Notes under the pieces: generated by a model
Database searches by the model: none
What the model was told of the DNA's origin: nothing
The model's input: the letters and a program-made list of their open reading frames with translations, nothing else
Source: Bugula neritina
Taxonomy: Eukaryota > Animalia > Bryozoa
Assembly (NCBI GenBank): GCA_964035545.1
Contig: OZ037765.1
Location: 31,309,504 to 31,373,503, forward strand
Direction: 5' to 3'
DNA length: 64,000 nucleotides
Made by a program: the position numbers and the translations under genes
In this document: positions 46,622-64,000 of the stretch, piece after piece
Numbering within the stretch: position 1 is the first letter of the stretch
Layout of the letters: each line of letters opens with the position of its first letter

Positions 46622-49217
46622 ATGGCGGATGAAGCTGGGCAGAAAGCTATGCTGCACTTTATAGAGATCCTCATGAACAGCTCTGCACCACTTTCTATAA
46701 GTCAGTTAGCTGGTCGTTTCGGAAGCAAAAATTTCACTCCAGAAATGAGGACTGCTGCAGGGGGCAATGAAGAAGGGCTGAAGTCCTTCCTGACTAAATA
46801 TCCTTCTCTCTTTAATATTGAAGGTAGGTATATGCAATGCTTATACAGTTTATATGTAAAGTTTAGAAAATAGAACTAGGCAAAATTATTCATGGTTTAG
46901 GATGAATGCTTGGAAAAAGCTAACAAAATTTTATAACGGAATGTTTCCAGTAGCAAGTTTTGTACAAGAAACGTTTGGGGTGAAAACATTTTTTATTTTG
47001 AATATAAGCAGTTTATACTATAGCATGTGCTGTTGATCATCTCAACCTTTTGAATAGCATCAATGCTTTCCAAGCTGTAACCAAGCAGTCCTAGCAACTT
47101 TAAAATAAGGTTGAGAATTTGGAGTTGTTTTCACCACAGAGTATGAAGCATTTTCCTCCAACTAGACTAGGTGCTCTTCATTCAGCTTGAAATGGGAATA
47201 GTACTCTTTGATCTAATGCTCGCAAGACAGAACTTAAAGCAGCATTTGACATTATTTTGTGTCTCCGGATATAAATATTGGAAGGGAATTATAAATTATT
47301 GATACAGCAATAGAAATTAGCTTTAGAGGTCTTCATATTATGTCTGTTTTGTGCTAGTTCACTCAAAGAGTAAATGCCTTTAGACATCACAATGCTACTG
47401 AGATACCCTTTACATCTTACAGGCTAATATTGCTCTAACATTTTATACATATTATATGTAACAAGTATTTAAATGCCCTAAATAAGTATGTTGTTGTATT
47501 ATTATACAGTTGATGGTTTACTCATTTGATATCATTTGATAAACTGTGCCATGTAAAAATGAATTATGCGTTGCAAATACCCAAACAAAATATCAGGGTA
47601 TTTGCAACATCATTTATATACCTGTATGTACCACCCATTCATTTATTGATTTGACAGTGTTGTTGTATATTTTTAGGCAATATGGTTTCTGTGAACATGC
47701 ATGGCACGCCCCTTCCTGAGAGCTCCGATGACGTTGACTCAGAGTCTAACAAGCCGCTGATGTCGGCTGTGGAGGTGGAGCTGAAGGCAGTCGACTACTT
47801 CCAGGACAAGTTGCTGAAGAAAGGGCTGGTCATGCCAGTCAAGAGCCTAGCCGGTCATCTCTCTCAGGCCCCGCTGCACATGAGGAACGTGGTGGGCCCC
47901 CAGACCGAATTCAGGAGCTTCCTTGTCAAACACAAAGATATATTTGTGGTTACAGAGGACGAGATGGTTACTTTAACTGAAGATATATTAAACAAACCAA
48001 GGTCTCAGGCAACAATGAACAGAAGCGAGAGTGACAGCAGTCTTGATTCTAATACAGCGTCTAAATCTGTTAGTAAAGATAGCAAGAGTAAGCCCTCTCC
48101 TATCACCATGACGGCCAGTGAGTATAAAACCATGAAGTTTTTGAAAGAGCTGGTTGAGCGAAATGAAGGAAGAATCTCTCTTGTGGGCGTGCTCAGTCAG
48201 GTGCCTGATGCTGCCGACTCTATTAGAAATATTCTCAGTGACAGCGAGGCCAAGCTGACTAGTTTTGTTCAGAAGTTTCCTAATATTTTTGTCCTGGTGG
48301 ATGACATGGTGACTCTGAAGAAGACGAAGCTGAATGTAATAATGGCGGGGAGTCGTCCAGTCACTAGTCCCAGTAACAGTGTCACTGACAGTTCTCTGTC
48401 CCCGCCATCCGATAGTCACTCGGAGAGTTACAACACGTCTACTTCCTCTAATATGACTGACTCACTGGAGAGACCCTCCTTGTTGTCTCAGTCTAGTGGC
48501 TACTCTCACTCTTCATACTCCACTCATCGCACGCTCAGCAATCACAAAGGTCCTGTCTACCATCTCGCAAAGCTCTGGGGAATCATTGACCTGGGGCGTC
48601 ATGAGCACGTCTTCTTTGACAGGTCTATACTTCCCGATGGGTATGACGACCTGGTGAAGAATTTCAAAATAGGCCAGATTTTGAGATTTAATGCTGTTCG
48701 AGCTGCACGAGGTAGCCGAGCTCGCTGGAGAGCCACTCACATCTGGCGAGATGGAGAAGATATTCGCAGTATGTATGGCATGAACGCCACTTTCTCCATT
48801 ACCGGCTTTAACCCATCTGGCGTAGACGATGAAATGAAAAAGTTACTTACTCAGGCCAATGCTAATCTAAATACAAACTCGAATGTAACTAACGACAGTT
48901 ACTCATACGTAGATGCTAGTCAGAGTAACACTGGCTGCATACCTGTCTGGACAACGAAACCCAAGGCAGACTTAGACGAGTCCAGCAGACGGAGCTTAGC
49001 TTCCCTTTCCATGGTGCCTGATAGTAGTTATAGTCTTAAATCTTCAAACCAAGATGGGAAGTCATTGATACCAGGTTATATGCTAGTTCCAACTGCTAAT
49101 GCAAAGCTCATCAAGTCCTGCACTAATGGAACAAATCAAATAACCCGAGAGATAGGTTGTCAGACTATTTCTACAGGAGACATTATGGCTACTCAGTTGT
49201 ACCAAGAAGAAGATTAG
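46622..49217 (+). CDS. Egalitarian-related protein, 580 aa: three Egl-type winged-helix domains, a cold-shock/OB-like domain and an LC8-binding tail; exons 46622-46823 and 47677-49217
   Basis: The N-terminus (AMLHFIEILM..LAGRFGSKNFTPEMRTAAGGNEEGLKSFLTKYPSLFNIEG) and second repeat (AVDYFQDKL..PVKSLAGHLSQA) resemble recalled Drosophila Egalitarian repeats. The C-terminal GCQTISTGDIMATQLY resembles the Egl dynein-light-chain site. No 3'-5' exonuclease-like domain is present. Confidence 0.85.
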
Positions 49218-50476: not shown

Positions 50477-53400
50477 ATGGCGGCCCCTCGAACAGACCAG
50501 GGTAAGTTGTTTCTTTCCATAAACATTAATTTTATTGATTTAAACACTATGACCAGGTTTTAAGTTCATTGTCAATTTGTAGCTTTATCAATAAAATTGT
50601 TAACTGTGTTTTAATTTTGACTCTGATTAACTCCTACGTCCTAGTGTCAGCACGACTCGGTTTCACAACTGAACTCAAAGTGTAAAACTTAAACTAAAAC
50701 TAAAAGTAAATTAAAAATGAATCAAAATAAAAAGAAAGCAATATCATCAATCAACTATTAGTATCATAGTTATAGTGATGATAATTATTCTGTGCCTGTT
50801 GCCGTTGCATTAACATTAACAGCATGCGCTGAACTATAGAATCAGAATGACGTTTTTGATTTACCATTTAGTTTTAATGATTGGGGTTTTCAAATTCGTC
50901 ATTATCACTGTGACTGTCAGCTCTCTCAGTCTCTGACTCTTGCCAAAACGACGGTGAGAGACCGAATAAGCACATTATGATTATTCTCATCTCATCTCAT
51001 CTAATTAATCTCACTCGGAGCGCTTTATTCTAATAGTAATAATATTAATTACACAGTTTATTTTATTGTTGTATTAAGCCTAAAGAGAGAAATCGGTTTT
51101 AAAATTATTCCAAATGAAAATGACCAACTCAAACTGGCAACAGTAGTCAGTATTTTAATTTAATAACTTATTACACTCGTCCTCGAAGTCGATGTTATAA
51201 GATTATCATATTCTATACTTAACATAATCACAAAGTCAATGGTGACTAAGCTCTGTTTTAGTTAAAAAGTAAAACGTAATTTCAAATTCATTCTGAGACT
51301 GATAATTGTTATTGAAATTGATCGCTGAATTAGCCTTTAAATTTAATATTAGTGAATTCTCCATGAAATATATTAATAATAGCGATGACCATAGCTCTGA
51401 TTAGTCATGTTTAGTTGTTACTTTGAGTGGTCCTGAACAAAGTAATGGTTTTATATAATATTATTTGTTTGGACATGATAAAATATTAAATAATTATTGT
51501 GATAATAAATCATAGGCTATAACTATTACTATTATTGTTATCAGACTAAATTTTATTGTTGAAACTCAAAATAAATCAGGAGTTTGACCTTTTTCATATC
51601 ATTTGTCTTAGTCTAGCTGATGACATTTCCATTTCCTGAAGTAAAATCTTGAAACATCATGCTTGTTGTTCAGTATTTGTTTTCAGTTTTAATTTTTTAA
51701 AAGTTTTTACACCTCCAGCTGTTGTTGATTTATTTATATTGTATAGGTCATTGGTTTGTAACTTGAAGAGTTTTGATACTTTTTAAAAAAAATTAAAAAC
51801 AGCTTCAAGAACGTGGTTTTTATCGTTTATTATTGCTATGTCTGAACTGAACTTTATAGTCTGAAATAATATAAATTATCTTTTGCCTCGATTTATTTTA
51901 GATTTTGCTGCTGCCATAAAAGAGCTTCAAGCTGGTCGAAATATACACTCTGAAAACCAGCCTGATGAAAACAGAGCTAATAGAATTGGCCTTGGAGCGG
52001 AAGGTCACTTTGACACAGATATCTACTCTGAGAAGTTTAGTGGACAGTTTGTGGATTCTATAGCACCTAATGATGAGCAAGATGTAAGTACCCTTCTTGG
52101 TACAATTATCTGCCAGCTTCTGCTTCTGAGTTTTCATTACATCTACTAGTTTCTTACCACACAGTTGTGTTTTTGTAGGACGATGATGATATGGGACAAA
52201 TGCTTGGAAAGAAGCCATCATCTTATTCAGCTCCGTTAAATGTGCTGAATGACTTGGCTCAAGACAAGGTAAGTGTGCATGCGAAGCGACCAGTTATTAT
52301 ACCACATCAATTTTTCAGCTCTTTTCTCATCGTGGTATGCTGTGTCTGTTAAGCTTAAGTGCGGGTACTGATTTATAGTTGAAAACTGTTGATATGTATA
52401 GAGTTCATAATGATGTAGGACTATGACCCTTTTGCTGAACACAAGCCGAAGAAAGTTCGGGATAGAGACAATGACTATAAAGCGCAGAAAAGACCTGTTC
52501 GCATGATCTCTCCAGACCGACATGATCCATTTGCTGATGGTATGGTCATATGTCTCAGTATTTCTGTGCCAGGGACCCCAAGGAATAATTTTTGATATTT
52601 CAGTTATTTTTAATTATCAAGCACAGTATTAGTATTTTTCTGTTTTATTGTTTTGATATTCTGCGATTACTCAGTATATCAATACTTTGCTAATCTATCA
52701 TTGCGCTATGTTATCTAGCCAATTGTGGGGATATTTACCTCGGGAATAGAAAGTGGTTTCTTATACAAGAATAAGCTGCTCTTGCTCCAAGCACTGACTA
52801 TTGACCAGCGGGTACGCTCGGAAAATTGTGCATAATTTGCTTTTCTGAGTGAAACCCAATGTTCAAAGCAGATATACGTACTGCTAGGGAGTATCAGCTA
52901 CAGAATACAATATCTTACATTAGTTAGAGGGGTTTCCCTGGTACATATATAGCTCTCATTAGGCCTGAAAACAACTGTTTGATATTGAGTTATACTAATC
53001 TGCTCGTATGTTCTCTCATTCCACCTCAGGTATCCACTTATACCGCTCTATCTGCAGCGTCACCGCTGCCCAAATCACTACTATGTGGTTGCGAGTTTGG
53101 CTGGAGATGGACCCACCTTCTTGCTCTTCGTGTCTTCTATCTAAGCAACATAACACTATAAATATTTACCATCATATGCCCCTATTTGATTCTTGCACAT
53201 GTTTTTTAGTATGCAATCGGATACATTATCTTGAATCAGAATTCTTTACATTTTGTGATGGTAAAAATCGTCCATTCCTTGGACTGTAAAATGCATTTGT
53301 AACTTGTTGGACTGACTGCTTACCTGTAAACGGCTGTTGTGTATTGGGGAGGGGCGGGGGTCAAGTGTTACTATAGTATTTATGGAATACTTTTAGATAA

Positions 53401-56400
53401 GCAACGATGGTGATGTTTGAGTTAGTCACCTTAGTGGAGGCCTGGTGGCTAGCCACCCCATGGAGTATGGTTAGTAGATATTTACTGGCTGCAATCGCTC
53501 TGGTGATTGTATGCCGGTAAGATGTGAAAGACGTGCAGCATGAGACTTACTTTTGTTTTGACTATTGTGTACGGCTCTTTAACTTCAGGCAGCTTTTGAT
53601 AATTCTAGCTGCTTGGTTTATAGTGAAAAGCAGAATTAAGTCGTACACAATAGTCATTTCACACATGCTGAGTTTTTCCTTGTCAGGACTTGGGTTGATG
53701 CACGTCCTATGGGTTTGTTACAATGATGAACAACTCAGCTGTGATGGGATCCCCTTGTTTCACTGACAGTTTTTCTAGATTAAGACATTTTGTTTGAGAT
53801 GTCATCTAACGACATGTTTTGTTATGTATTTTCCAGGAGGTAAAACACCAGATGTGTCTAACAAGGCTAGAACTTACACATCCATCATGCAGGAGCAGGA
53901 ACTGCGCAGAGACCAGGTGAGCTCCTAGCGCCAGGTGTGGCACCTCCTGTTCATAATTCCCGTGCTTGTAAGCCCTTCACGTTTGGTTTCTTTGATTCTT
54001 TTGTTATTTCAGAGAGGAGTTGAAGACAAGATGCGGGAGAAGGCCAAGACGGGTGAGCTGAAAGCTAATGGCTCAGATGTGACGGTGCAGCAGAAGAAGA
54101 AAAGGCGGTGGGATCAGGCTGTAGAGGCCGATGCTAACAACCAGCCAACTCCCAAAAGAAGAATAGACGCCCCCGCCACACCATCACAGGCCAGCTGGGC
54201 CGAGACACCCGGTCGGATAGCCCCTGATGCCACCCCTGGATCCGCACAGACTCCTGGCACAGTTAGACACTGGGCTGAGACTCCTGTTCACGTGTCGGCC
54301 GGCAGCATGACTCCGGGACGTGAGCCAACGACTCCCGGACACAGTGGAGCCACGCCCAGTGGGAGACGTAACAGATGGGATGAGACACCAAGAGGCACAG
54401 GGGGTTAGTTGACAGTCTATTAGATGTTGGCATTATTTGATCAAGAGAGAACTTGTCATGTAGCTTCGTGATTCTCTGCCATTCAAATGGCTCACGGCTG
54501 TTCCTTAGATCTGTTTTCTGTCTATTTTTATTTTTTTTTTTCAATTTTCTCTCTTCAGTCAGTTTTAATTTGTGTTAATTTCTCATTGCCATGTCATGTG
54601 TTGCTCTTTGTTAATATACTAACTGAGTGATGCACTGCTTCTACAGAAACCCCCGCACACTCTGGGTGGGCTGAGACCCCTAAGGCTAACCGAGCAGGGG
54701 AGGATAAGATAGAGGATACTCCATCAGCCTCTGTGTCTAAGAGACGCTCCAGATGGGACGAGACTCCTGTAACAGCTGGAGCTATGACGCCCTCGATGAC
54801 CCCCGGGGCTCACACCCCTGGTGGTGGCACACCTGGCGGGTTCACTCCAGGGGGTGCGTTTACACCAGGGGGTGCTACACCCAGTGGCTTCACCCCGGGA
54901 GGGATAACTCCTAGTGGTGTGACTCCAATTGGAAATAAGGCTATGCAGATGGCTACTCCCTCTCCAGGTATGTGCCACTAGCGTTTAGTTGAAAGCCGTT
55001 TGCTTGCAGTTGACATTGACCTTCACTTAATAGACAGTGACTGTTGACCTTCACTTTTATTGTCTTCCAAGATCCATGCCTCACAGAATGTTAATTTCTA
55101 GGTCAACTTATGGCAATGACACCGGAGCAGATGCAGGCATTCAACTGGCAGAAGGAGATAGACATCAGGAACAGACCTCTCTCAGACGATGACCTGGACG
55201 CAATGTTCCCCGAGGGATACAAAGTACTGCAACCCCCTGCAGGCTACGTGCCCATACGTACGCCGGCTCGTAAACTCATGGCCACTCCAACACCTATGAT
55301 GGGCGGTACTCCAGGCTTCAAGATGCAAGGAACACCAGACCACCAGGCCAACAAGGATCTGGTGGTGGACATGCAGCCTAAAGGCAACCTCCCAACTCTC
55401 AAACCCGACGATATGCAGTACTTTGATAAGTTGCTGGTGAGTCACTCCTTCTGTAGTTATTCCATCTTTAACATGTATCTACTAGCATATATCTATTAGC
55501 ATGTATCTACTGGCATATATATATTAGCATGTGTCTACTAGCATATATCTACTAGCATAATTATATATACTGGCTTATATCTACTAGCATATATATACTA
55601 GCATATATATACTGGCATGTGTCTACTAGCATATATCTACTAGCATATATCTACTAGCATATATCTACTGGCATATATATATTAGCATGTGTCTACTAGC
55701 ATATATCTACTAGCATATATATACTGGCATATATCTACTACCATATATATACTAGCATATATATACTGGCATGTGTCTACTAGCATATATCTACTAGCAT
55801 ATATCTACTAGTGTATGACTGAATCTCTAGGTGGATGTGGACGAGGAATCGTTGACCCCAGAGGAGCAGAAGGACAGGAAGATTATGAAGTTTCTGCTAA
55901 AGATAAAGAACGGCACACCGCCCATGAGAAAGGCTGCCCTCCGTCAAATCACCGACAAGGCGAGAGAGCTGGGAGCTGGGCCCCTCTTCAACCAAATATT
56001 GCCCCTCCTCATGTCCCCTACTCTGGAGGACCAAGAGAGACATCTGCTCGTCAAGGTGTGTGGTGTAACACATTTGTCTTCATGATTTAACTAATCTACT
56101 TTTACTGCTGGACTCATCTTAACAATAGAGACTATTTATAGAGACAAGTTAGCAGTATCCCTGGTGATGCTTGATTAAAGCATTTCATGTTTCTGATCTG
56201 TTAATGTTCATTATTTTTGTATGACAGGTGATTGACAGAATCCTGTACAAACTGGATGATCTCGTTAGACCCTACGTTCACAAGATATTGGTGGTGATAG
56301 AGCCTTTACTCATTGATGAAGATTACTATGCTAGAGTGGAGGGTAGGGAGATTATCTCTAACTTGGCCAAGGTGAGTGCTATTTGTATTACAGATTTACT

Positions 56401-59400
56401 GAAACATCTGTAAGTTGAGAAATCATCAAGTAAAGTGGAATGTTCTGTCATTGTAATGTTTAAATTGACTTGCAGGCAGCTGGCCTGGCCACTATGATCT
56501 CTACAATGAGACCAGATATTGACAACATGGACGAGTACGTACGTAACACCACAGCCAGAGCGTTTGCCGTTGTAGCCTCAGCTCTAGGTATTCCTTCACT
56601 ACTGCCCTTCCTAAAGGCTGTGTGCCGCAGTAAGAAGTCGTGGCAGGCCAGGCACACAGGCATCAAGATTGTCCAGCAGATCAGCATATTGATGGGTTGT
56701 GCTGTGCTGCCACACCTCAAGAGTCTTGTGGAAATCATCCGTCATGGTATGTTGTATAAAGACACTTCCAGCCAATCATCAGCACTAATGTGCACTTTGG
56801 TATTTTATTTTTTTTGAAAGTGAGAAGAATGATTTTTATCATTTCTATAACCAGCTTAGCTGACTTTCTTTAAAGTAACATCAAGTTTTTAACTGTATTT
56901 GCTGAAAGTTTTATGTTTTGGTGTGCAGGTTTGCAGGATGAGCAGCAGAAAGTTCGTACTATCACAGCCTTGTCACTGGCAGCACTGGCAGAGGCAGCTA
57001 CGCCGTACGGTATTGAGTCGTTTGATACGGTTCTCAAACCTCTGTGGAAGGGTATTCGTCAGTTCAGAGGAAAGGGTCTAGCCGCCTTCCTCAAAGCTAT
57101 TGGCTATCTCATCCCACTGATGGACGCCGAGTACGCCAACTACTACACCAGAGAAGTCATGTTGATCCTGATACGAGAGTTCCAGTCTCCCGATGAGGAG
57201 ATGAAGAAGATCGTGCTGAAGGTGGTGAAGCAGTGCTGTGCCACTGATGGTGTGGAACCTCAGTACATCAAAGATGAAATCCTGCCGCCTTTCTTTAAGC
57301 ATTTCTGGAACCAGAGGATGGCCCTTGATAGACGTAACTACAGACAGGTGGGTCTACCCAACATGTCTGATTTCTTCTAGATGCTATTGAGGATAATTAC
57401 AAGAATGCATTATTCTAACATGTTCTTCTAGTGTGCTAAATATTTTATTTTTTCATATCATAGAAAGAAAACATGTTTATACTTATTTGTTAGGGTGTGT
57501 AGATTGCTAGTCTCACCCTTGACTTTGTTGTCTGTCTGTATTGCTTAACTGTAATGCCTGCTGAGCCCTCTGTTCACCTGTTTGCAGCTGGTTGACACCA
57601 CCGTGGAGATCGCCAACAAGGTGGGTGCAGCTGAGATCATCAACAGAGTCGTAGACGACCTGAAAGACGAAAGCGAGCAGTACAGGAAGATGGTGATGGA
57701 GACTATAGAGAAGGTGATGGCCAACCTGGGGGCTTCAGATATCGACTCGAGACTCGAAGAGCAGCTTATTGACGGCATTCTCTACGCCTTCCAGGAGCAG
57801 ACAACTGAGGTAAATGACTTCCACAAGTTATTCACATGTGTCTAATTATGTTTAAAAACCACTCTGTTCCCTTGCTTTGAATTGCTCAGTGCAGGATGCT
57901 AATATGGATAGATTTGTAGTTGTGTTAACCTATGGTTGTGGTTTCATTCAATTGACGCGGTCCCCATGCATCGAATGAAAAATCTATTCCCATAATGCAA
58001 AGCATGGGGACGTAGTGCATGAGACCAGCTGGTGGTTTTGTTTGCTGTTGACTCTTCTGTAAAACATAGAGTTTTTTGTTTATAACTCTTCGGAATAAAA
58101 TTTCAGGATGTGGTAATGTTGAATGGGTTTGGAGTTGTGGTAAACTCCCTGGCCAAGAGGTGTAAGCCCTACCTCCCGCAGATATGCGGTACGATTCTGT
58201 GGCGTCTCAACAACAAGTCAGCTAAAGTGCGTCAGCAGGCAGCCGATCTGATCTCGCGTATTGCAGTTGTGATGAAGACTTGCCAGGAGGTATGCTTCAC
58301 TTCCTGTATTTATATATCTTTATTATTGTTTCGTGTCTGCTGTAGCAGCACTCTATTATTTCTATTGACTATGGAGAAGTGTATACACAGTAATTATTAC
58401 ATTTTCTGCTCTGTGAACTATACTTTTTAATAGAATTCAAACTTCCCCCTGCAGTGTACTAATGTGTATATACGTCGCAGAGCAATGATGTGTATATACT
58501 GTACTACACATTACAATGTATGATGCATACTATACAGTGCACTGTGTAGTATATACAGCTGATGGGTGTATACTTCCCACACAGTGTACTCTGTGTATAT
58601 ACCACACATGTGTTTATACTAATGTGGTGTTACAGGAGAAGCTAATGGGTCACCTGGGTGTTGTACTGTACGAGTATCTTGGGGAAGAGTATCCAGAAGT
58701 TCTGGGCAGTATTCTCGGAGCCCTCAAGGGCATCGTCAATGTCATCGGCATGACCAAGATGACTCCGCCCATAAAAGATCTCCTGCCAAGGCTGACACCC
58801 ATTCTAAAAAACAGGTACTGGGGCTAGCATTACTAATATTTACCTGTTTCAGTTCCAAAGCTGTTATCTGATTGTTTATGGTTTGTGAAGTTGTGTCCTC
58901 CATGCCTGCACCGGTAAAATGTTTGTGTTTGTAGACACGAGAAGGTGCAGGAGAACTGTATAGATCTGGTGGGCAGAATCGCCGACAGAGGCTCTGAGTT
59001 TGTACCTGCCAGAGAGTGGATGAGAATCTGCTTTGAGCTCCTGGAGTTGCTAAAAGCCCACAAGAAGGCCATCCGAAGAGCCGCTGTTAACACCTTTGGT
59101 TATATCGCCAAGGCTATTGGGTATGTAAACTACGAGTATGGAGCTATAGTACTGTGGTAGTCTAAGTAGGACTTAATTGCTTTTTGTATAATACTTATGG
59201 TTTGAAAAACTAAAAGTATTTGTTCTCATGTGAAAAATTCCAATTTGGATTTTTGTCAACAAAATATGTAAGAATTACCTGTCTTCTCTCACTGAGAGAA
59301 AGCTGTCACATGTCGCTCACTGTATGGGAATTAATAATTTCTGGTTTTTATTCCAGTCCTCATGACGTGTTGGCAACGCTGCTGAACAACTTGAAGGTGC

Positions 59401-60659
59401 AGGAGAGACAGAACAGAGTGTGCACCACCGTGGCTATTGCTATAGTTGCTGAAACCTGCTCCCCCTTCACCGTCCTACCTGGTCTAATGAACGAGTACAG
59501 AGTTCCCGAACTGAATGTACAGAATGGTGTCCTCAAGTCCCTGAGCTTCATGTTTGAGTATATCGGAGAGATGGGTAAAGACTATATCTATGCTGTAACA
59601 GGACTGCTGGAAGATGCCCTCATGGACAGGTATGCTATGTCAACAAGTATAGGAATGGCTACTTATGTTGAAGAATATATAATGTAGTTGCTCTAGTTGC
59701 CTTAGTTAATTATTTTTAGCTCGTTTAGAATATACAAGTTGTGATAAACTCCTCTTGCAGCCTTGTGCTGTAGTTGAAGTATATTTTACCTTCTAATATC
59801 ACTAAAGCTTTACATCTCATCCATTTGTAGGGATCTGGTTCACAGACAGACTGCTATGTACACAATTCAGCACCTTGCACTCGGTGTTTACGGGTTCGAC
59901 TGCGAAGACGCGTTGAACCATCTTCTCAACTATGTGTGGCCCAATGTTTTTGAGACTTCCCCTCACGTTGTGCAGGCCTTCATGGGTGCAATAGAGGGGA
60001 TGAGGCTTGGTCTCGGCTCAACTAGAGTCTTACAGTATGCCCTACAAGTATGTACTGCTAAATATTCTTCTAGAGCTTTTTATGTTTACAACTTGTGCTA
60101 TAGGACAGTGTTTCAGTGTAACACTTGCTCCCATATAGAATGGCATGCTCTTCTAGTAGGATTTCGTCAACTTAATCAAGTTGAATTTCCTCTTTTTTAC
60201 GTACTTGCGTTATTCTATTTATGTGTGTATGTATAATATGGACATATTAATTTGAACAAAACTTTCAAATTCTAGAAGCTGTAAGATAGGGGGATAATCT
60301 ATATACTAAAAGTTTTTTCACAACATATTGAGTAACTGGAAAGTAAGATAGGCCCATAAAATGTCTGTTTGGCAGTTGTCATGATAATTTCAAACTTACG
60401 TTTTTGAGAGTATACTTAACCTGGGCAGAGCTAGTGGATTTTCACTGTGTACAACTATTTGCTATGTTTTTGGCTATAAGATCATGTAATTATTTTGCAG
60501 GGTCTATTCCATCCAGCTAGAAAAGTAAGAGATGTATATTGGAAAGTGTACAATACGATATATATTGGAGCTGAGCATGCCATGGTACCAGCTTATCCCA
60601 GGATGGAAAATGATGATCGAAACACCTACATGCGATATGAACTTGATTATGTGTTATGA
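50477..60659 (+). CDS. SF3B1: Splicing factor 3B subunit 1 (SF3b155), ~20 exons
   Basis: RWDETP/WAETP ULM and TP-rich N-terminus, [21 protein letters not shown], near-invariant HEAT repeats ([31 protein letters not shown]) and C-terminal RYELDYVL. First exon 50477-50501, with a YY1-like AACATGGCGG over the ATG. Confidence 0.98.
52540..53836 (+). other. SF3B1 intron 4 with candidate cryptic/decoy exons (acceptors at 53029, 53434, 53686)
   Basis: The intron interrupts DPFADG|GKTP. It has internal branch-point/polypyrimidine/AG signals and clustered donors (53261, 53470, 53503, 53517). Confidence 0.65.
55480..55811. repeat. 14-bp minisatellite (TAGCATATATCTAC) x~23 in an SF3B1 intron
   Basis: Direct tandem array visible in the sequence. 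Confidence 0.95.
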
Positions 60660-60875: not shown

Positions 60876-63800
60876 CTAACTGTAAGAATTAGCTCTGTGT
60901 TTGGGAATGAAGAAGAACCCATCTGGTACAGGACCCAGTAACATCTCACTGTAAATATACAAACATTCTAACCAAATACAAGTTTGTTTACAAAAATGAC
61001 ATATAATGCCGTAACTCGCCATTAACTTCACTACACATGTATTCTATCTGCAGTTTTAAACAAGATTAGCTTTTGGTTCACAAAAACATACGTTGCTTAC
61101 TCTAACTTCTTAATTCCACAAATAAACCATATAATATGGTTATATTATAATATATACCTTTTAAATATTAAACTCATTTAAGTGGTCATTTATACAATAA
61201 GAGGTTATTAGCCTATACAGTCTACACTAATTTCAAATTCATTTGGATCTCAAGTTGAACAATAACAGTTTTTATTAACGGAAATCACTTACCAACAGGA
61301 TATAATGACACAAGGTAAATAAATACCAACTCAAAAAGAAAGTAAATGGCAATGCACTAATAGACACATTAGCCCATATCACAATATTAATTGAATCTCC
61401 TAAACCCAAGAGTTTAGTACTGACCTAATTTTTACCCAATCAGCTGAGTTAGGACTGGCCATTAGTGTCTCTAGATCGTTTCTTCCAAAATAGGGGCTTG
61501 GTCGTTCGTTAATTTTCTGAGGAATTCTCTCTAGCAGTCCTATTGGAATGTATCTACAGGAGACATTGGAAATAAAAAGTTGTTCAATTTAGTTGAAAAT
61601 CACAGACAGCTTCAGTGAGACAATCAGTGATAATCAAAAAAGATTATTTCCAATAGTTTTCCAGTAGAAGGTTCAAATATAACCAGTGACAAGGTACCAA
61701 GATTGATATACCTAATCATAACCAAGGAATACCTGCATAGAATCATACAATAAATCATCACTCAACCTGTGCAGAAAAGATATCCACTCTAGCATGAACC
61801 TCCTAGTTGTCTCCACCCCTTGTGTATCTGATCCCCAGTGTTCCAGTCCATAGTTACTGAAGTCTCGTAAAATATCCAGCCGTTCAGAAGATGATATGTC
61901 CCAGTGTCGCTGCTCCTTTATCTCAGTGAACAGCCAAGGCTTGATTAGTGCGCCTCTAAAACCAGCAAGTCACCTGACATAAAACACGATGTGCTGAGTA
62001 GATTGTATTCTGTGTTAAAAAAGATCAAAATACAGTTGATCTGCTATAACCGGAATTTAGGTACAGTAGTGAAGAAATTTTAAGAGCCAAAGCTTTTTAA
62101 TTTCTTAATAAAGTTTGATTTGGGTTGAGGGTTGAAATTCCTCACGAGAACATAACTTCTTTTGCTACAGTTTTAATCTAGAACACACTTTTGTCAATTT
62201 CTTCATTACTGCACCTACTTTTAATTTCATGACTGCATTGATTGCAGTTTGATAATAACTCTATGATTCAAACTAATTCAAAATGATTTCAATTCATTTC
62301 TTAACTCCGAATACTTCAATCACAACAAATTTTTTCCACTCGGTCACTAAATAACACTTGATCATTCAAATGTAAATATTATCTAAAGACAACATTTTAA
62401 CTAAGAAGAGTAAAGGAGAATAAAGCAACCTGGCAATCATGGTGCCAGACACGCTGGTCTTCATTGCTGTGTTATAGTCTTCAAAGGACAGGATATCTCC
62501 TCCCCCATACAGGGGCATAGGAGAAGACAACTTCGCACACTCATCTATGTAACTCCAGTCAGCACACTTTGTGTATCGTTGCTCTCTCGATCTACCATGT
62601 AGCTGTAAGCATTCAATAGACAACCATTACTATGGAACTTCATCACATGACATGAAGTCATACTAAACTATTAAAACTTCATTCATTGATAGGATTTCAT
62701 TTAAACCAACATGCATTTGACAAATGTACAAAAATAGATGAATGTAAAAACCATCAATATTTATATAAAATTGCATGCTACTAGTTCACTAGTACTAAAG
62801 ACCATTTTTTAGTCCAATACACAACTAATATGTTTCAATTCAACAATAATGAAGTTTACACCCTGTGACTTGCACACTTTGAATTTCATGTAAAATTTTC
62901 CTTTAACCCACCAACAACCAATACTGCTAGCATATACCTCAGTGCCAAATCCAGTGTGTTCAAAGTTGGGCATACATTATAAGACCAAATGTTAAAGATT
63001 TTAATCCTTGTATCTATTGCAACATACACACAAATGTGTATAAAACATACACTATAGCTACATGGTAAGTATGCATATAGCTACATGGTAACTTACAGTG
63101 GTGAGGGCAAGGTCCCAGGTTTTCATTTTGGTTACCAGGCTATGTGCAGTGCTTTTGTTTTCAGATATACCAGTGCGGATCTTTGCAGTAATTGGTATAT
63201 TCGACACATTTACCATCGCACGCACTATCTCATGGAACCTGTTCACTCGCCTCATTAATGCTGATCCTGAACCCTAGATAGTCGAGAGTCAAGATTGCAT
63301 ACAAATTTAATTGGTAATAACTTTTACTAACAAGTATTAAATAAGTATACAAAACATAAAAAAGACTATTTTAACTGATGATTAACTCATCACATTAGAA
63401 GAGAAATTCTGTAGTAAATAATAAGGAGGTCACGAACGTGCATATTGAAAACGTGAACGTGTAGTTGTCTCCCCCAGCCATATTGAGCATAAGTAAAAGA
63501 TGTCCACTAAATCGTATGACTGAAAGTTACGTAATTGTAGGAAGTTGTGGGTTGAACAAACCTGATCAAAAATCAGATCAATCGGACATCCTACATTAAT
63601 GTCTATAAAGTCCAGTTCACAAGTCTCTGTGAGGAGTTGTGTGCACTTTGACATAGAGTCGGCGAATGCCCCACACAGTTGAACACCAAAGACATCTTCT
63701 GAAGAATGACGCTTTACAAGAGCCCACTCTGATGAGACTCCCTGGAGAAGCTTTGTAGCTACCGCCATTTCTCCGCAAGTTATGTCAGCACCATATGTCT

Positions 63801-64000
63801 TGCATACACGACGAAAGGGGAGATTTCCAACCTGGTGAGACATATGCACAGCTTCACAGAATACTAGATAACTTAGAAGATGCACGATAATATGCAGTAC
63901 ATAGAACAGAATTAATGTAACCACTTACGGTAGTTAAGGGAGCAAGGTAGAGTTTGTTGTCAAAGTTGATGGTCTTTTTCTCACCAGGCTTAATAGTAAA
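60876..64000 (-). CDS. DUS3L: tRNA-dihydrouridine(47) synthase DUS3-like, 3' part (5' end beyond the window)
   Basis: [77 protein letters not shown] and C-terminal [22 protein letters not shown]. Stop at 60876-60878. Confidence 0.95.

What the first reader, a model, noticed from the sequence alone, without database searches (positions are those of the whole stretch)
52540..53836. SF3B1 intron 4 looks like an ancient decoy/poison-exon autoregulatory module
Seen: the intron interrupting DPFADG|GKTP is 1297 nt, far longer than the downstream SF3B1 introns, and it is repeat-free and sequence-complex. It holds three candidate cryptic exons. (A) TACTAAT branch point (52993-52999), pyrimidine tract and CAG at 53029. 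(B) AG at 53434 followed by clustered donors ATG|GTTAGT (53470), CTG|GTGATT (53503) and CCG|GTAAGA (53517). (C) GCTGAG-TTTTTCCTTGTCAG at 53686, whose in-frame reading stops at TGA 53764-53766, 70 nt before exon 5. A G-run tract sits at ~53346-53360. Established: mammalian SF3B1 intron 4, at the same ADG|GKTP position, is a retained intron with highly conserved non-coding decoy exons bearing multiple 5' splice sites (Conboy lab). Inference: the same intron-retention/NMD feedback device exists in this invertebrate, implying conservation since the bilaterian ancestor. My impression that these blocks resemble the vertebrate sequence is unverified recall.
Basis: partly seen in the sequence, partly recalled or inferred. 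Interest (0 to 1): 0.85.

Follow-up and report, generated by a model that had tools for sequence, protein, structure and literature searches.

The report
Structure-gated retained intron in SF3B1
In a moss animal (bryozoan), the same intron of the core splicing-factor gene SF3B1 that human cells hold back is kept in transcript-like sequence data and carries conserved hidden splice sites and predicted RNA helices, which likely form an old brake on how much of the protein is made.

Summary
The window holds the Bugula neritina-type SF3B1 gene. Intron 4 (52540-53836) is a real regulatory candidate. In two RNA-like runs it alone among the introns laid is covered end to end; in the deeper run about 25% of exon-4 donor depth is unspliced and about 10% is joined to acceptor A (53029). 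Two distant bryozoans keep short colinear islands in this intron only: acceptor A, a 67-73 nt stop-bearing exon B, and predicted helices, two with compensatory pairs. Corrections: exon B starts at 53397, not 53435; only donor 53470 is conserved; block C is a stem-loop that pairs its AG with a branch-point-like CACTGAC. The intron position is shared by 36 of 37 animal loci (a biased search), and bivalves and arthropods carry an internal exon whose donor matches human decoy E4e. The bryozoan donor does not, and no bryozoan block shows a profile match outside bryozoans; only acceptor B resembles the bivalve one. NMD, decoy action and autoregulation are untested. The scan noted similar SF3B1 modules earlier in two other genomes. 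Verdict: new variant of a known kind.

The parts
50477..60659 (+). SF3B1 gene, 19 coding exons (ATG to stop)
   Evidence: exon 4 is 100% identical to Bugula neritina KAF6029700.1
52419..52539 (+). Exon 4; its donor ATG|GTATGGTC has the fewest matches to the U1 consensus (5 of 11) among 13 constitutive donors scored
52540..53836 (+). Intron 4, 1297 nt, selectively retained in RNA-like contigs
52566..52579 (+). Helix P1, 5' arm (core CCAGGGA invariant in 3 of 3 bryozoans)
52929..52944 (+). Helix P1, 3' arm (core TCCCTGG); predicted pairing shortens donor-to-branch-point distance from 458 to about 80 nt
52993..53029 (+). Acceptor A: branch point TACTAAT, tract, CAG; joined to exon 4 in one RNA-like run; no conserved downstream donor; AG|GT in 3 of 3 bryozoans
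53346..53360 (+). G-run tract, present as GGG runs in 3 of 3 bryozoans
53370..53396 (+). Acceptor B (corrected), weak tract; best AG-anchored match is the conserved internal acceptor of two bivalve-like loci
53397..53469 (+). Predicted poison/decoy exon B, 73 nt (67 and 70 nt in relatives, all 3n+1), stop TGA at 53411-53413; no junction seen
53424..53450 (+).
53470..53477 (+). Donor B, G|GTTAGTA in 3 of 3 bryozoans
53478..53525 (+). Predicted hairpin P3 just after donor B; position but not sequence conserved; holds the non-conserved GTs at 53503 and 53517
53664..53769 (+).
53837..53916 (+). Exon 5 (GGKTPD...)

Best explanation
Intron 4 of this bryozoan SF3B1 gene is selectively retained and partly spliced to an internal acceptor, and its conserved cryptic splice sites and predicted helices likely act as decoys that divert part of the transcripts from productive splicing. 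Mechanism, with status. Exon 4 ends in a weak donor (shown). Helix P1 would fold out 200-380 nt and bring that donor about 60-80 nt from a strong branch point at A (predicted, flanks covary). Splicing to A leaves 807 nt in the RNA and a premature stop (junction shown in one run; stop shown). Exon B, with a weak acceptor and a donor followed by a hairpin, would engage the spliceosome mostly without being spliced, like human E4e (inferred). Stem-loop P4 would hide acceptor C and a branch-point-like site near the 3' end and so slow full excision (structure supported by covariation; role inferred). Products are likely held in the nucleus or destroyed by NMD (inferred from established pathways). 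Because U2/SF3b recognises branch points, SF3B1 supply may set the balance (speculative, about 0.4).
For:: X11 contig depth 80.6-85.2 across intron 4, 221.6 for the exon 4-5 joint, 36 for the joint to A, at most 7.7 in intron 3, 0 in the intron 1 and 6 bins; X6 4.2-10.5 versus 56.2, 0 in the intron 1, 3 and 6 bins; DNA-like X5 mostly 21-25 throughout; 22 of 821 differences in the 3' part versus 28 of 245 in introns 2+3 (p=2e-7) and 28 of 832 in exons (p=0.47); three-way colinear 7-mer chain 38 nt versus 3.9 in shuffles (0 of 200 reach it); intron 1 shows nothing (z 0.1, -0.2); block C 91% over 35 nt where coding exons are 70-84%; 60 of 60 cells paired, 5 of 15 pairs compensatory, 2 of 500 shuffles. 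P1 beats 12 of 12 shuffles in 4 of 4 bryozoan sequences; all 7 isoforms modelled stop early in 3 of 3 species; 0 of 21 variable columns in 231 nt of islands (P=0.014); Watersipora has an annotated isoform starting in exon 5.
Against: Only 2 RNA-like runs gave data, both only guessed to be RNA, and contig depth is a poor measure of level. The A joint is one contig in 1 of 2 runs with 27 letters on the short side, a class the tool warns about (the exon 3-4 and 4-5 joints have 27-28 as well). The intron contigs overlap exons 4 and 5 by 26 and 29 letters, under the tool's 31-letter bridging rule. No joint to 53397, 53687 or from 53470 was listed. Depth in the 3' part (80.6) is below retained plus A-spliced (121). 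Covariation rests on three lineages. In the window's wider context P4 pairs with probability only 0.16-0.19, against 0.8-1.0 in the relatives. AGs lie between CACTGAC and exon 5 in the window and L005, and the window has a nearer CTAAC. Window versus L019 alone is not significant (z 1.4).
Confidence: 0.72

Rival explanations
1. Same behaviour, separate origin (differs on ancestry only): bryozoans built their own decoy set in an old intron, and exon B is not descended from the exon that gave human E4e.
For: 0 of 3 bryozoan introns have the [ACT]|GTA[CGT]GTAT donor. The exon-B profile found 0 hits in 31 non-bryozoan loci. Whole-intron global z against 12 non-bryozoan introns is -1.9 to 1.0. The L005 acceptor matches the bivalve ones at only 11-12 of 27.
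Against: Acceptor B ranks first among 117-118 AGs of bivalve-like L024 at 7 of 7 lengths (ties at two) and first among 87 in L034 at 5 of 7, each time at that lineage's own conserved acceptor; 20 of 27 is reached by 0 of 15,199 background AGs. Exon size (49-88 nt), relative position (0.51-0.72) and early stop or frameshift recur.
Confidence: 0.4
2. Stepwise removal: A is a recursive (AG|GT) site, so the exon 4-A joint and the 3' coverage are intermediates on the way to normal mRNA, with P1 speeding the first step.
For: AG|GT at A in 3 of 3 bryozoans; the regenerated donor would be G|GTATCC in the window; P1 fits a first step.
Against: The regenerated donors are weak and differ between species (GTATCC, GTTATG, GTGAAT); AG|GT occurs at 4 of the first 11 ordinary acceptors listed; the 5' part is retained as deeply as the 3' part in X11; exon B, P3 and P4 are not explained.
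Confidence: 0.1
3. The intron hosts an independent structured RNA (P4 as a miRNA-like hairpin or snoRNA), and coverage and constraint reflect its processing.
For: P4 is a roughly 90-nt conserved stem-loop ending 63-94 nt before the acceptor, with a CTGA.
Against: No Rfam match near a gathering score (2 hits, E 2.5 and 3.4); arms covary rather than keep sequence; no conserved C box or ACA by inspection; coverage spans the whole intron; the other islands are splice signals.
Confidence: 0.07
4. Neutral slow splicing of a long intron with a weak donor; the cryptic sites are noise.
For: Weak donor; single-sequence motifs are near chance.
Against: The laid end of the longer intron 1 has depth 0 and intron 1 shows no conservation; L019 keeps a 1081-nt intron 4 while its introns 1-3 and 5 are about 60-250 nt; constraint and covariation as above.
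Confidence: 0.05

Closest known systems
Human/vertebrate SF3B1 intron 4 with decoy exons E4a-E4f (Parra 2018, PMC6097662; Parra 2020, PMC7373989)
   Same: Same gene and intron position; intron over 1 kb; selectively retained; conserved non-coding cryptic splice sites that give premature stops; junction from exon 4 into the intron.
   Different: No sequence match shown; one predicted full cassette (B) plus two acceptor-only sites instead of six cassettes; donor G|GTTAGTA instead of T|GTACGTAT; long-range and stem-loop structure not described in the passages read; decoy action untested here.
SF3B3 intronic stem-loop with concealed branch site and poison exon (Li 2024, PMC11162794)
   Same: SF3b subunit gene; conserved stem that pairs a branch-point-like adenosine; poison exon in the same intron; conservation across animal phyla.
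   Different: Here the stem lies downstream of the poison-type exon and would hide a site for the terminal acceptor or acceptor C; branch use is not mapped.
ARGLU1, OGT and SNRNP70 decoy-exon introns (as described in the Parra papers)
   Same: Retention beside a conserved cassette; for SNRNP70 mainly the downstream part is retained, as in the exon 4-A isoform.
   Different: Feedback is reported for OGT and ARGLU1; none is shown for SF3B1 in what I read.
Recursive (ratchet) splice sites (recalled, not from a call)
   Same: AG|GT at acceptor A.
   Different: Short intron and weak, non-conserved regenerated donor.

Membership tests
Decoy-exon retained intron (Parra/Conboy class) | Intron over 1 kb, retained while its neighbours are spliced | tested here: met
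   1297 nt, 2 of 2 RNA-like runs (RNA status is a guess; contigs only)
Decoy-exon retained intron (Parra/Conboy class) | Conserved non-coding cryptic splice sites inside the intron | tested here: met
Decoy-exon retained intron (Parra/Conboy class) | Junctions link the cassette to both flanking exons | tested here: inconclusive
   exon 4-A joint in 1 of 2 runs; no joint for exon B or C; contigs drop rare forms
Decoy-exon retained intron (Parra/Conboy class) | Deleting or masking the decoy lowers retention | not testable with these tools
   needs minigene or antisense
Poison exon / AS-NMD | Inclusion gives a premature stop with introns downstream | tested here: met
   stop within 3-5 codons for exon B in 3 of 3 species; 14 introns follow intron 4
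Poison exon / AS-NMD | Isoform rises when NMD is blocked | not testable with these tools
   no such data
Orthologue of human E4e | Same intron position | tested here: met
   36 of 37 loci incl. fish-like L010; the search pattern favoured introns
Orthologue of human E4e | E4e-type donor (non-G|GTACGTAT) | tested here: not met
   0 of 3 bryozoans; exact 8-mer in 4 of 13 introns
Orthologue of human E4e | Alignable exon or acceptor sequence | tested here: inconclusive
   acceptor B matches bivalve-like loci; no direct alignment to the human intron was run; L010 appears to end before the fish-conserved decoys
Concealed-branch-site stem-loop (SF3B3 type) | Conserved stem pairing a branch-point-like A | tested here: met
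   weak in the window's wide-context fold
Concealed-branch-site stem-loop (SF3B3 type) | The paired A is a used branch point | not testable with these tools
   needs lariat sequencing; intervening AGs argue against it in 2 of 3 species
Autoregulatory splicing-factor feedback | Unproductive splicing responds to the factor's own level | not testable with these tools
   no perturbation data
Intronic snoRNA or miRNA | Rfam family match or conserved boxes | tested here: not met
   inspection

The most novel reading that the evidence does not exclude
SF3B1 intron 4 has been a self-sensing brake since at least the bilaterian ancestor: one ancestral poison/decoy exon (human E4e, the GTACGTAT-donor exon of bivalves and arthropods, bryozoan exon B) survives in it, and in lophotrochozoans RNA structure gates it, with P1 delivering exon 4 to a decoy branch point and a stem hiding the terminal branch point (also seen in two bivalve-like loci), so that the supply of SF3b itself decides whether the intron is removed.
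Probability: 0.27. Interest if true: 0.78.

Novelty: new variant of a known kind. Interest (0 to 1): 0.56.

Why it matters
The papers read here trace the SF3B1 decoys only from fish to mammals and leave open how decoys block excision. If the module is pan-bilaterian, unproductive splicing of this intron is one of the oldest controls on a core spliceosome protein that is also a cancer gene and drug target. The bryozoan version is compact and names testable parts (two covarying helices, one exon, one used acceptor), and the recurrence in arthropods points to genetically tractable models. Deep conservation of such switches is known for SF3B3, so this extends a known principle rather than overturning one.

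Tried and rejected
No whole genome is held for this window, so genome-wide intron controls were not possible. Run X2 gave no usable pieces. Rfam: nothing. BLASTN of the intron against 36 orthologous introns: only block C in the 5 L005-type loci was significant; the best other hit (coral-like group, E=0.17) falls on acceptor B, but that exon is 57 nt, in frame, without a stop in L030 and L035, and is no conservation peak, so I make no pre-bilaterian claim from it; the label 'coral-like' is recalled, not from a call. Profile R1 (exon B): 0 hits in 31 loci. Model R2 (block C): one non-self hit, in L032 outside intron 4 and without the outer stem. Acceptors A, C, exon 5 and 53434 gave no convincing match at another phylum's own conserved cryptic site. 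A loose by-eye likeness of 53045-53058 to the start of human E4e was rejected because L005 and L019 lack it; the PDF text of Fig. S1 is scrambled. Protein-coding use of A, B or C: peptides and frames differ between species. ACTAA[CT] is not enriched (8 of 13 introns, 36 of 200 shuffles), though TACTAA[CT] is (7 of 13, 0 of 200). Concealed branch points were not general: clear only in bryozoans and the two bivalve-like loci among 14 intron ends folded. Local hairpins as strong as z<-3 are as common in intron 1 (4 of 90 windows) as in intron 4 (4 of 83), so P3 rests on its position in 3 of 3 species, not its energy.
Full report
Identity and anatomy. The window encodes SF3B1 on the plus strand from 50477 to 60659 in 19 coding exons. 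Exon 4 is identical to Bugula neritina KAF6029700.1, a 157-residue model that reads on into intron 4. Intron 4 spans 52540-53836 (1297 nt). Intron 1 is 1400 nt; the other 16 are 95-453 nt.

RNA evidence. Of 22 runs listed, 4 were laid on 51800-54700. X2 gave nothing usable and X5 behaved like DNA. X11 and X6, both guessed to be RNA and from different studies, showed the normal exon joints and also covered intron 4 nearly end to end. In X11 the depth was 85.2 (5' part) and 80.6 (3' part) against 221.6 for the exon 4-5 joint, at most 7.7 in intron 3 and 0 in the intron 1 and 6 bins. In X6 it was 4.2-10.5 against 56.2. X11 also has a joint reported as 52540 to 53039 at depth 36. These runs lack 8 nt from 53031 and the joint has 3 ambiguous letters, so it is exon 4 spliced to acceptor A (52539|53030). 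At the exon 4 donor this gives about 65% to exon 5, 25% unspliced and 10% to A. Limits: contig depth is crude, the A joint is one contig with a 27-letter side, the intron contigs fall just short of the tool's bridging rule, and no joint for B or C was listed.

Constraint at short range. X5, X11 and X6 come from a type about 3% divergent in exons. Differences were 21 of 150 in intron 3, 7 of 95 in intron 2, 27 of 405 in the 5' part of intron 4, 22 of 821 in its 3' part and 28 of 832 in exons (counts mix records of three runs, and only 40 of 150 single differences were printed). The 3' 800 nt are as conserved as coding exons (p=0.47) and far more than introns 2+3 (p=2e-7).

Constraint at long range. 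A degenerate search for the end of exon 4 returned 37 animal SF3B1 loci; 36 of 37 have an intron at DPFA[DE]G|, though the pattern required GGT and so favoured introns. Six loci are bryozoan-like: five of one type (L005, intron 1258 nt, 88-98% to Watersipora in the core exons) and L019 (1081 nt). Their coding exons are 70-84% identical to the window and no other intron aligns, yet block C is 91% identical over 35 nt in L005. A three-way colinear chain of 7-mers covers 38 nt against 3.9 in shuffles (0 of 200). The islands are CCAGGGAC (52569), TCCCTGG (52935), AGTCACC (53424), GGTTAGTA (53469) and TCACTGAC (53760), with the branch point and AG of A, the G-run and an AG at 53396 also aligned. 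None of 21 variable columns among the five L005-type loci falls in the 231 nt of islands (P=0.014).

Exon B is 53397-53469. It is 73, 67 and 70 nt in the three species, always 3n+1, with a stop in 3-5 codons. AG 53434 and the donors at 53503 and 53517 are not conserved; those donors lie in a hairpin (z -4.9) whose position just after donor B recurs in all three species and in 4 of 4 cladoceran-like loci, but not in the bivalve-like, termite-like, L032 or coral-like ones. Block C folds the same way in all three species: the cryptic AG arm pairs with CTGAC, 60 of 60 cells pair and 5 of 15 pairs are compensatory (2 of 500 shuffles; slid controls 33-50% paired). The tool warns that related sequences can beat shuffles, and there are three lineages only. 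The unpaired but invariant TCA before CTGAC suggests a branch-point constraint (inference). Against that, AGs intervene before exon 5 in two species and the window's wide fold prefers other helices. A long-range helix P1 joins the intron's first 20-60 nt to the stretch before branch point A, with an invariant core and different, still pairing, flanks; it is the best duplex in 4 of 4 sequences and beats 12 of 12 shuffles each. It would cut the donor-to-branch distance from 458, 333 and 260 nt to 80, 77 and 61 nt.

Other phyla. L024 is 89% identical to Mya arenaria SF3B1 and L034 also places there; L001, L003 and L012 place with the cladoceran Evadne; L007 with a termite. Bivalve-like and cladoceran-like loci each have their own conserved internal branch point, AG and donor, and these, L032 and L007 define 49-88 nt exons with an early stop or frameshift. 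Their donor is non-G|GTA[CGT]GTAT. The morpholino printed in PMC7373989 gives the human E4e donor as T|GTACGTATTC. The exact 8-mer occurs in 4 of 13 introns (0.11 expected) and the wider motif in 8 of 13 (0.66 expected; 0 of 200 shuffles; one of the 8 is not at an exon). The motif was chosen after viewing, the 13 are not independent, and the three bryozoans lack it. The link from bryozoans is acceptor B: it ranks first among the AGs of L024 at 7 of 7 lengths and of L034 at 5 of 7, at those loci's own conserved acceptor, but L005's acceptor does not share the match and profile searches found nothing. The two bivalve-like loci also have a conserved 8-pair hairpin over GTGAC, 22-23 nt before exon 5. 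Protein records agree: named vertebrate isoforms end in GFYSAA or AVLLCQ after DPFAD; 15 named invertebrate isoforms that I picked from the listings (molluscs, nemerteans, chelicerates, insects, a hemichordate, Watersipora) start inside exon 5 or just after it, and scallop and Gigantopelta isoforms have foreign residues joined to exon 5. I did not see their transcripts. Contig-derived proteins P0028, P0400, P0062, P0075 and P0080 have exons 3-4 joined and read into intron 4, as retained-intron RNA would. I put homology of exon B with E4e at about 0.5 and an ancestral bilaterian unproductive exon in this intron at about 0.7.

Mechanism. Shown: weak exon 4 donor, selective retention, use of A in one run, premature stops, constraint. 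Predicted: P1-P4. Inferred: decoy action of exon B, hiding of a 3' branch point, NMD or nuclear detention. Speculative: feedback through SF3b. Rivals are recursive splicing, a hosted small RNA, neutral slow splicing and convergent origin.

Literature. PMC6097662: parts 1-2 of 6, the Discussion, passages, and part 1 plus passages of Fig. S1; it reports six decoys conserved at most to fish and has no occurrence of 'invertebrate'. PMC7373989, PMC11162794 and PMC13100119: passages only. Nine searches (listings only beyond those four papers) showed no paper on SF3B1 intron 4 retention in invertebrates; the library lacks most subscription papers. Two earlier scan notes report similar modules in other genomes; they are unchecked and were seen after my analysis. 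No look-alike stretch was indexed.

Verdict. A real, conserved, structured retained intron that works like the human SF3B1 decoy intron and sits at the same place. It is a new variant of a known kind; membership as a proven decoy, NMD target or autoregulatory loop awaits experiment. Interest 0.56.

Noticed in passing
window 50477-52596: The NCBI model KAF6029700.1 (157 aa) ends inside intron 4, so the public annotation captures the retained form or splits the gene.
   Followed up: partly
window 55472-55811: Tandem array of 24 copies of a 14-nt unit inside SF3B1 intron 8.
   Followed up: no
window 53559-53576 and 53639-53656: 18-nt inverted repeat, 94% complementary, between exon B and block C; not seen as an island in the relatives; may compete with P4.
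   Followed up: partly
window 53317-53326: TGCTTACCTG resembles the 5' end of U1 snRNA (recalled), i.e. the complement of a donor; not conserved in L005 or L019.
   Followed up: partly
window 52810-52870: Strong local hairpin (z -5.1) inside the loop of P1.
   Followed up: no
L001, L003, L012, L027 intron 4 (about nt 210-400): Cladoceran-like loci keep an invariant AG|GTGAGTAA donor upstream of the TATTAACCTAGA branch point, suggesting two cryptic exons in a 545-614 nt intron.
   Followed up: partly
L024 and L034, intron nt 842-883 and 449-489: Second conserved bivalve acceptor with ACTAAT and no obvious donor, upstream of the poison-type exon, like acceptor A.
   Followed up: partly
L020, L029, L030, L035, intron nt about 1250-1450: Conservation peak (90-96% over four loci) around a tract-CAG followed at once by CG|GT[AG]GT in the unplaced coral-like group.
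   Followed up: no
L002, L015, L025; L017: Ant-like loci have a 166-167 nt intron 4 without the donor motif, and L017 has no intron here, so the module can be lost; hymenopteran records end DPFAE-VT[IV][CN]TFG, a different alternative exon.
   Followed up: no
window 47655-49217 (+) and about 61700-63924 (-): Neighbours: a 520-codon single-exon ORF, syntenic in L005, and a gene on the minus strand that looks like a tRNA-dihydrouridine synthase (label recalled).
   Followed up: no
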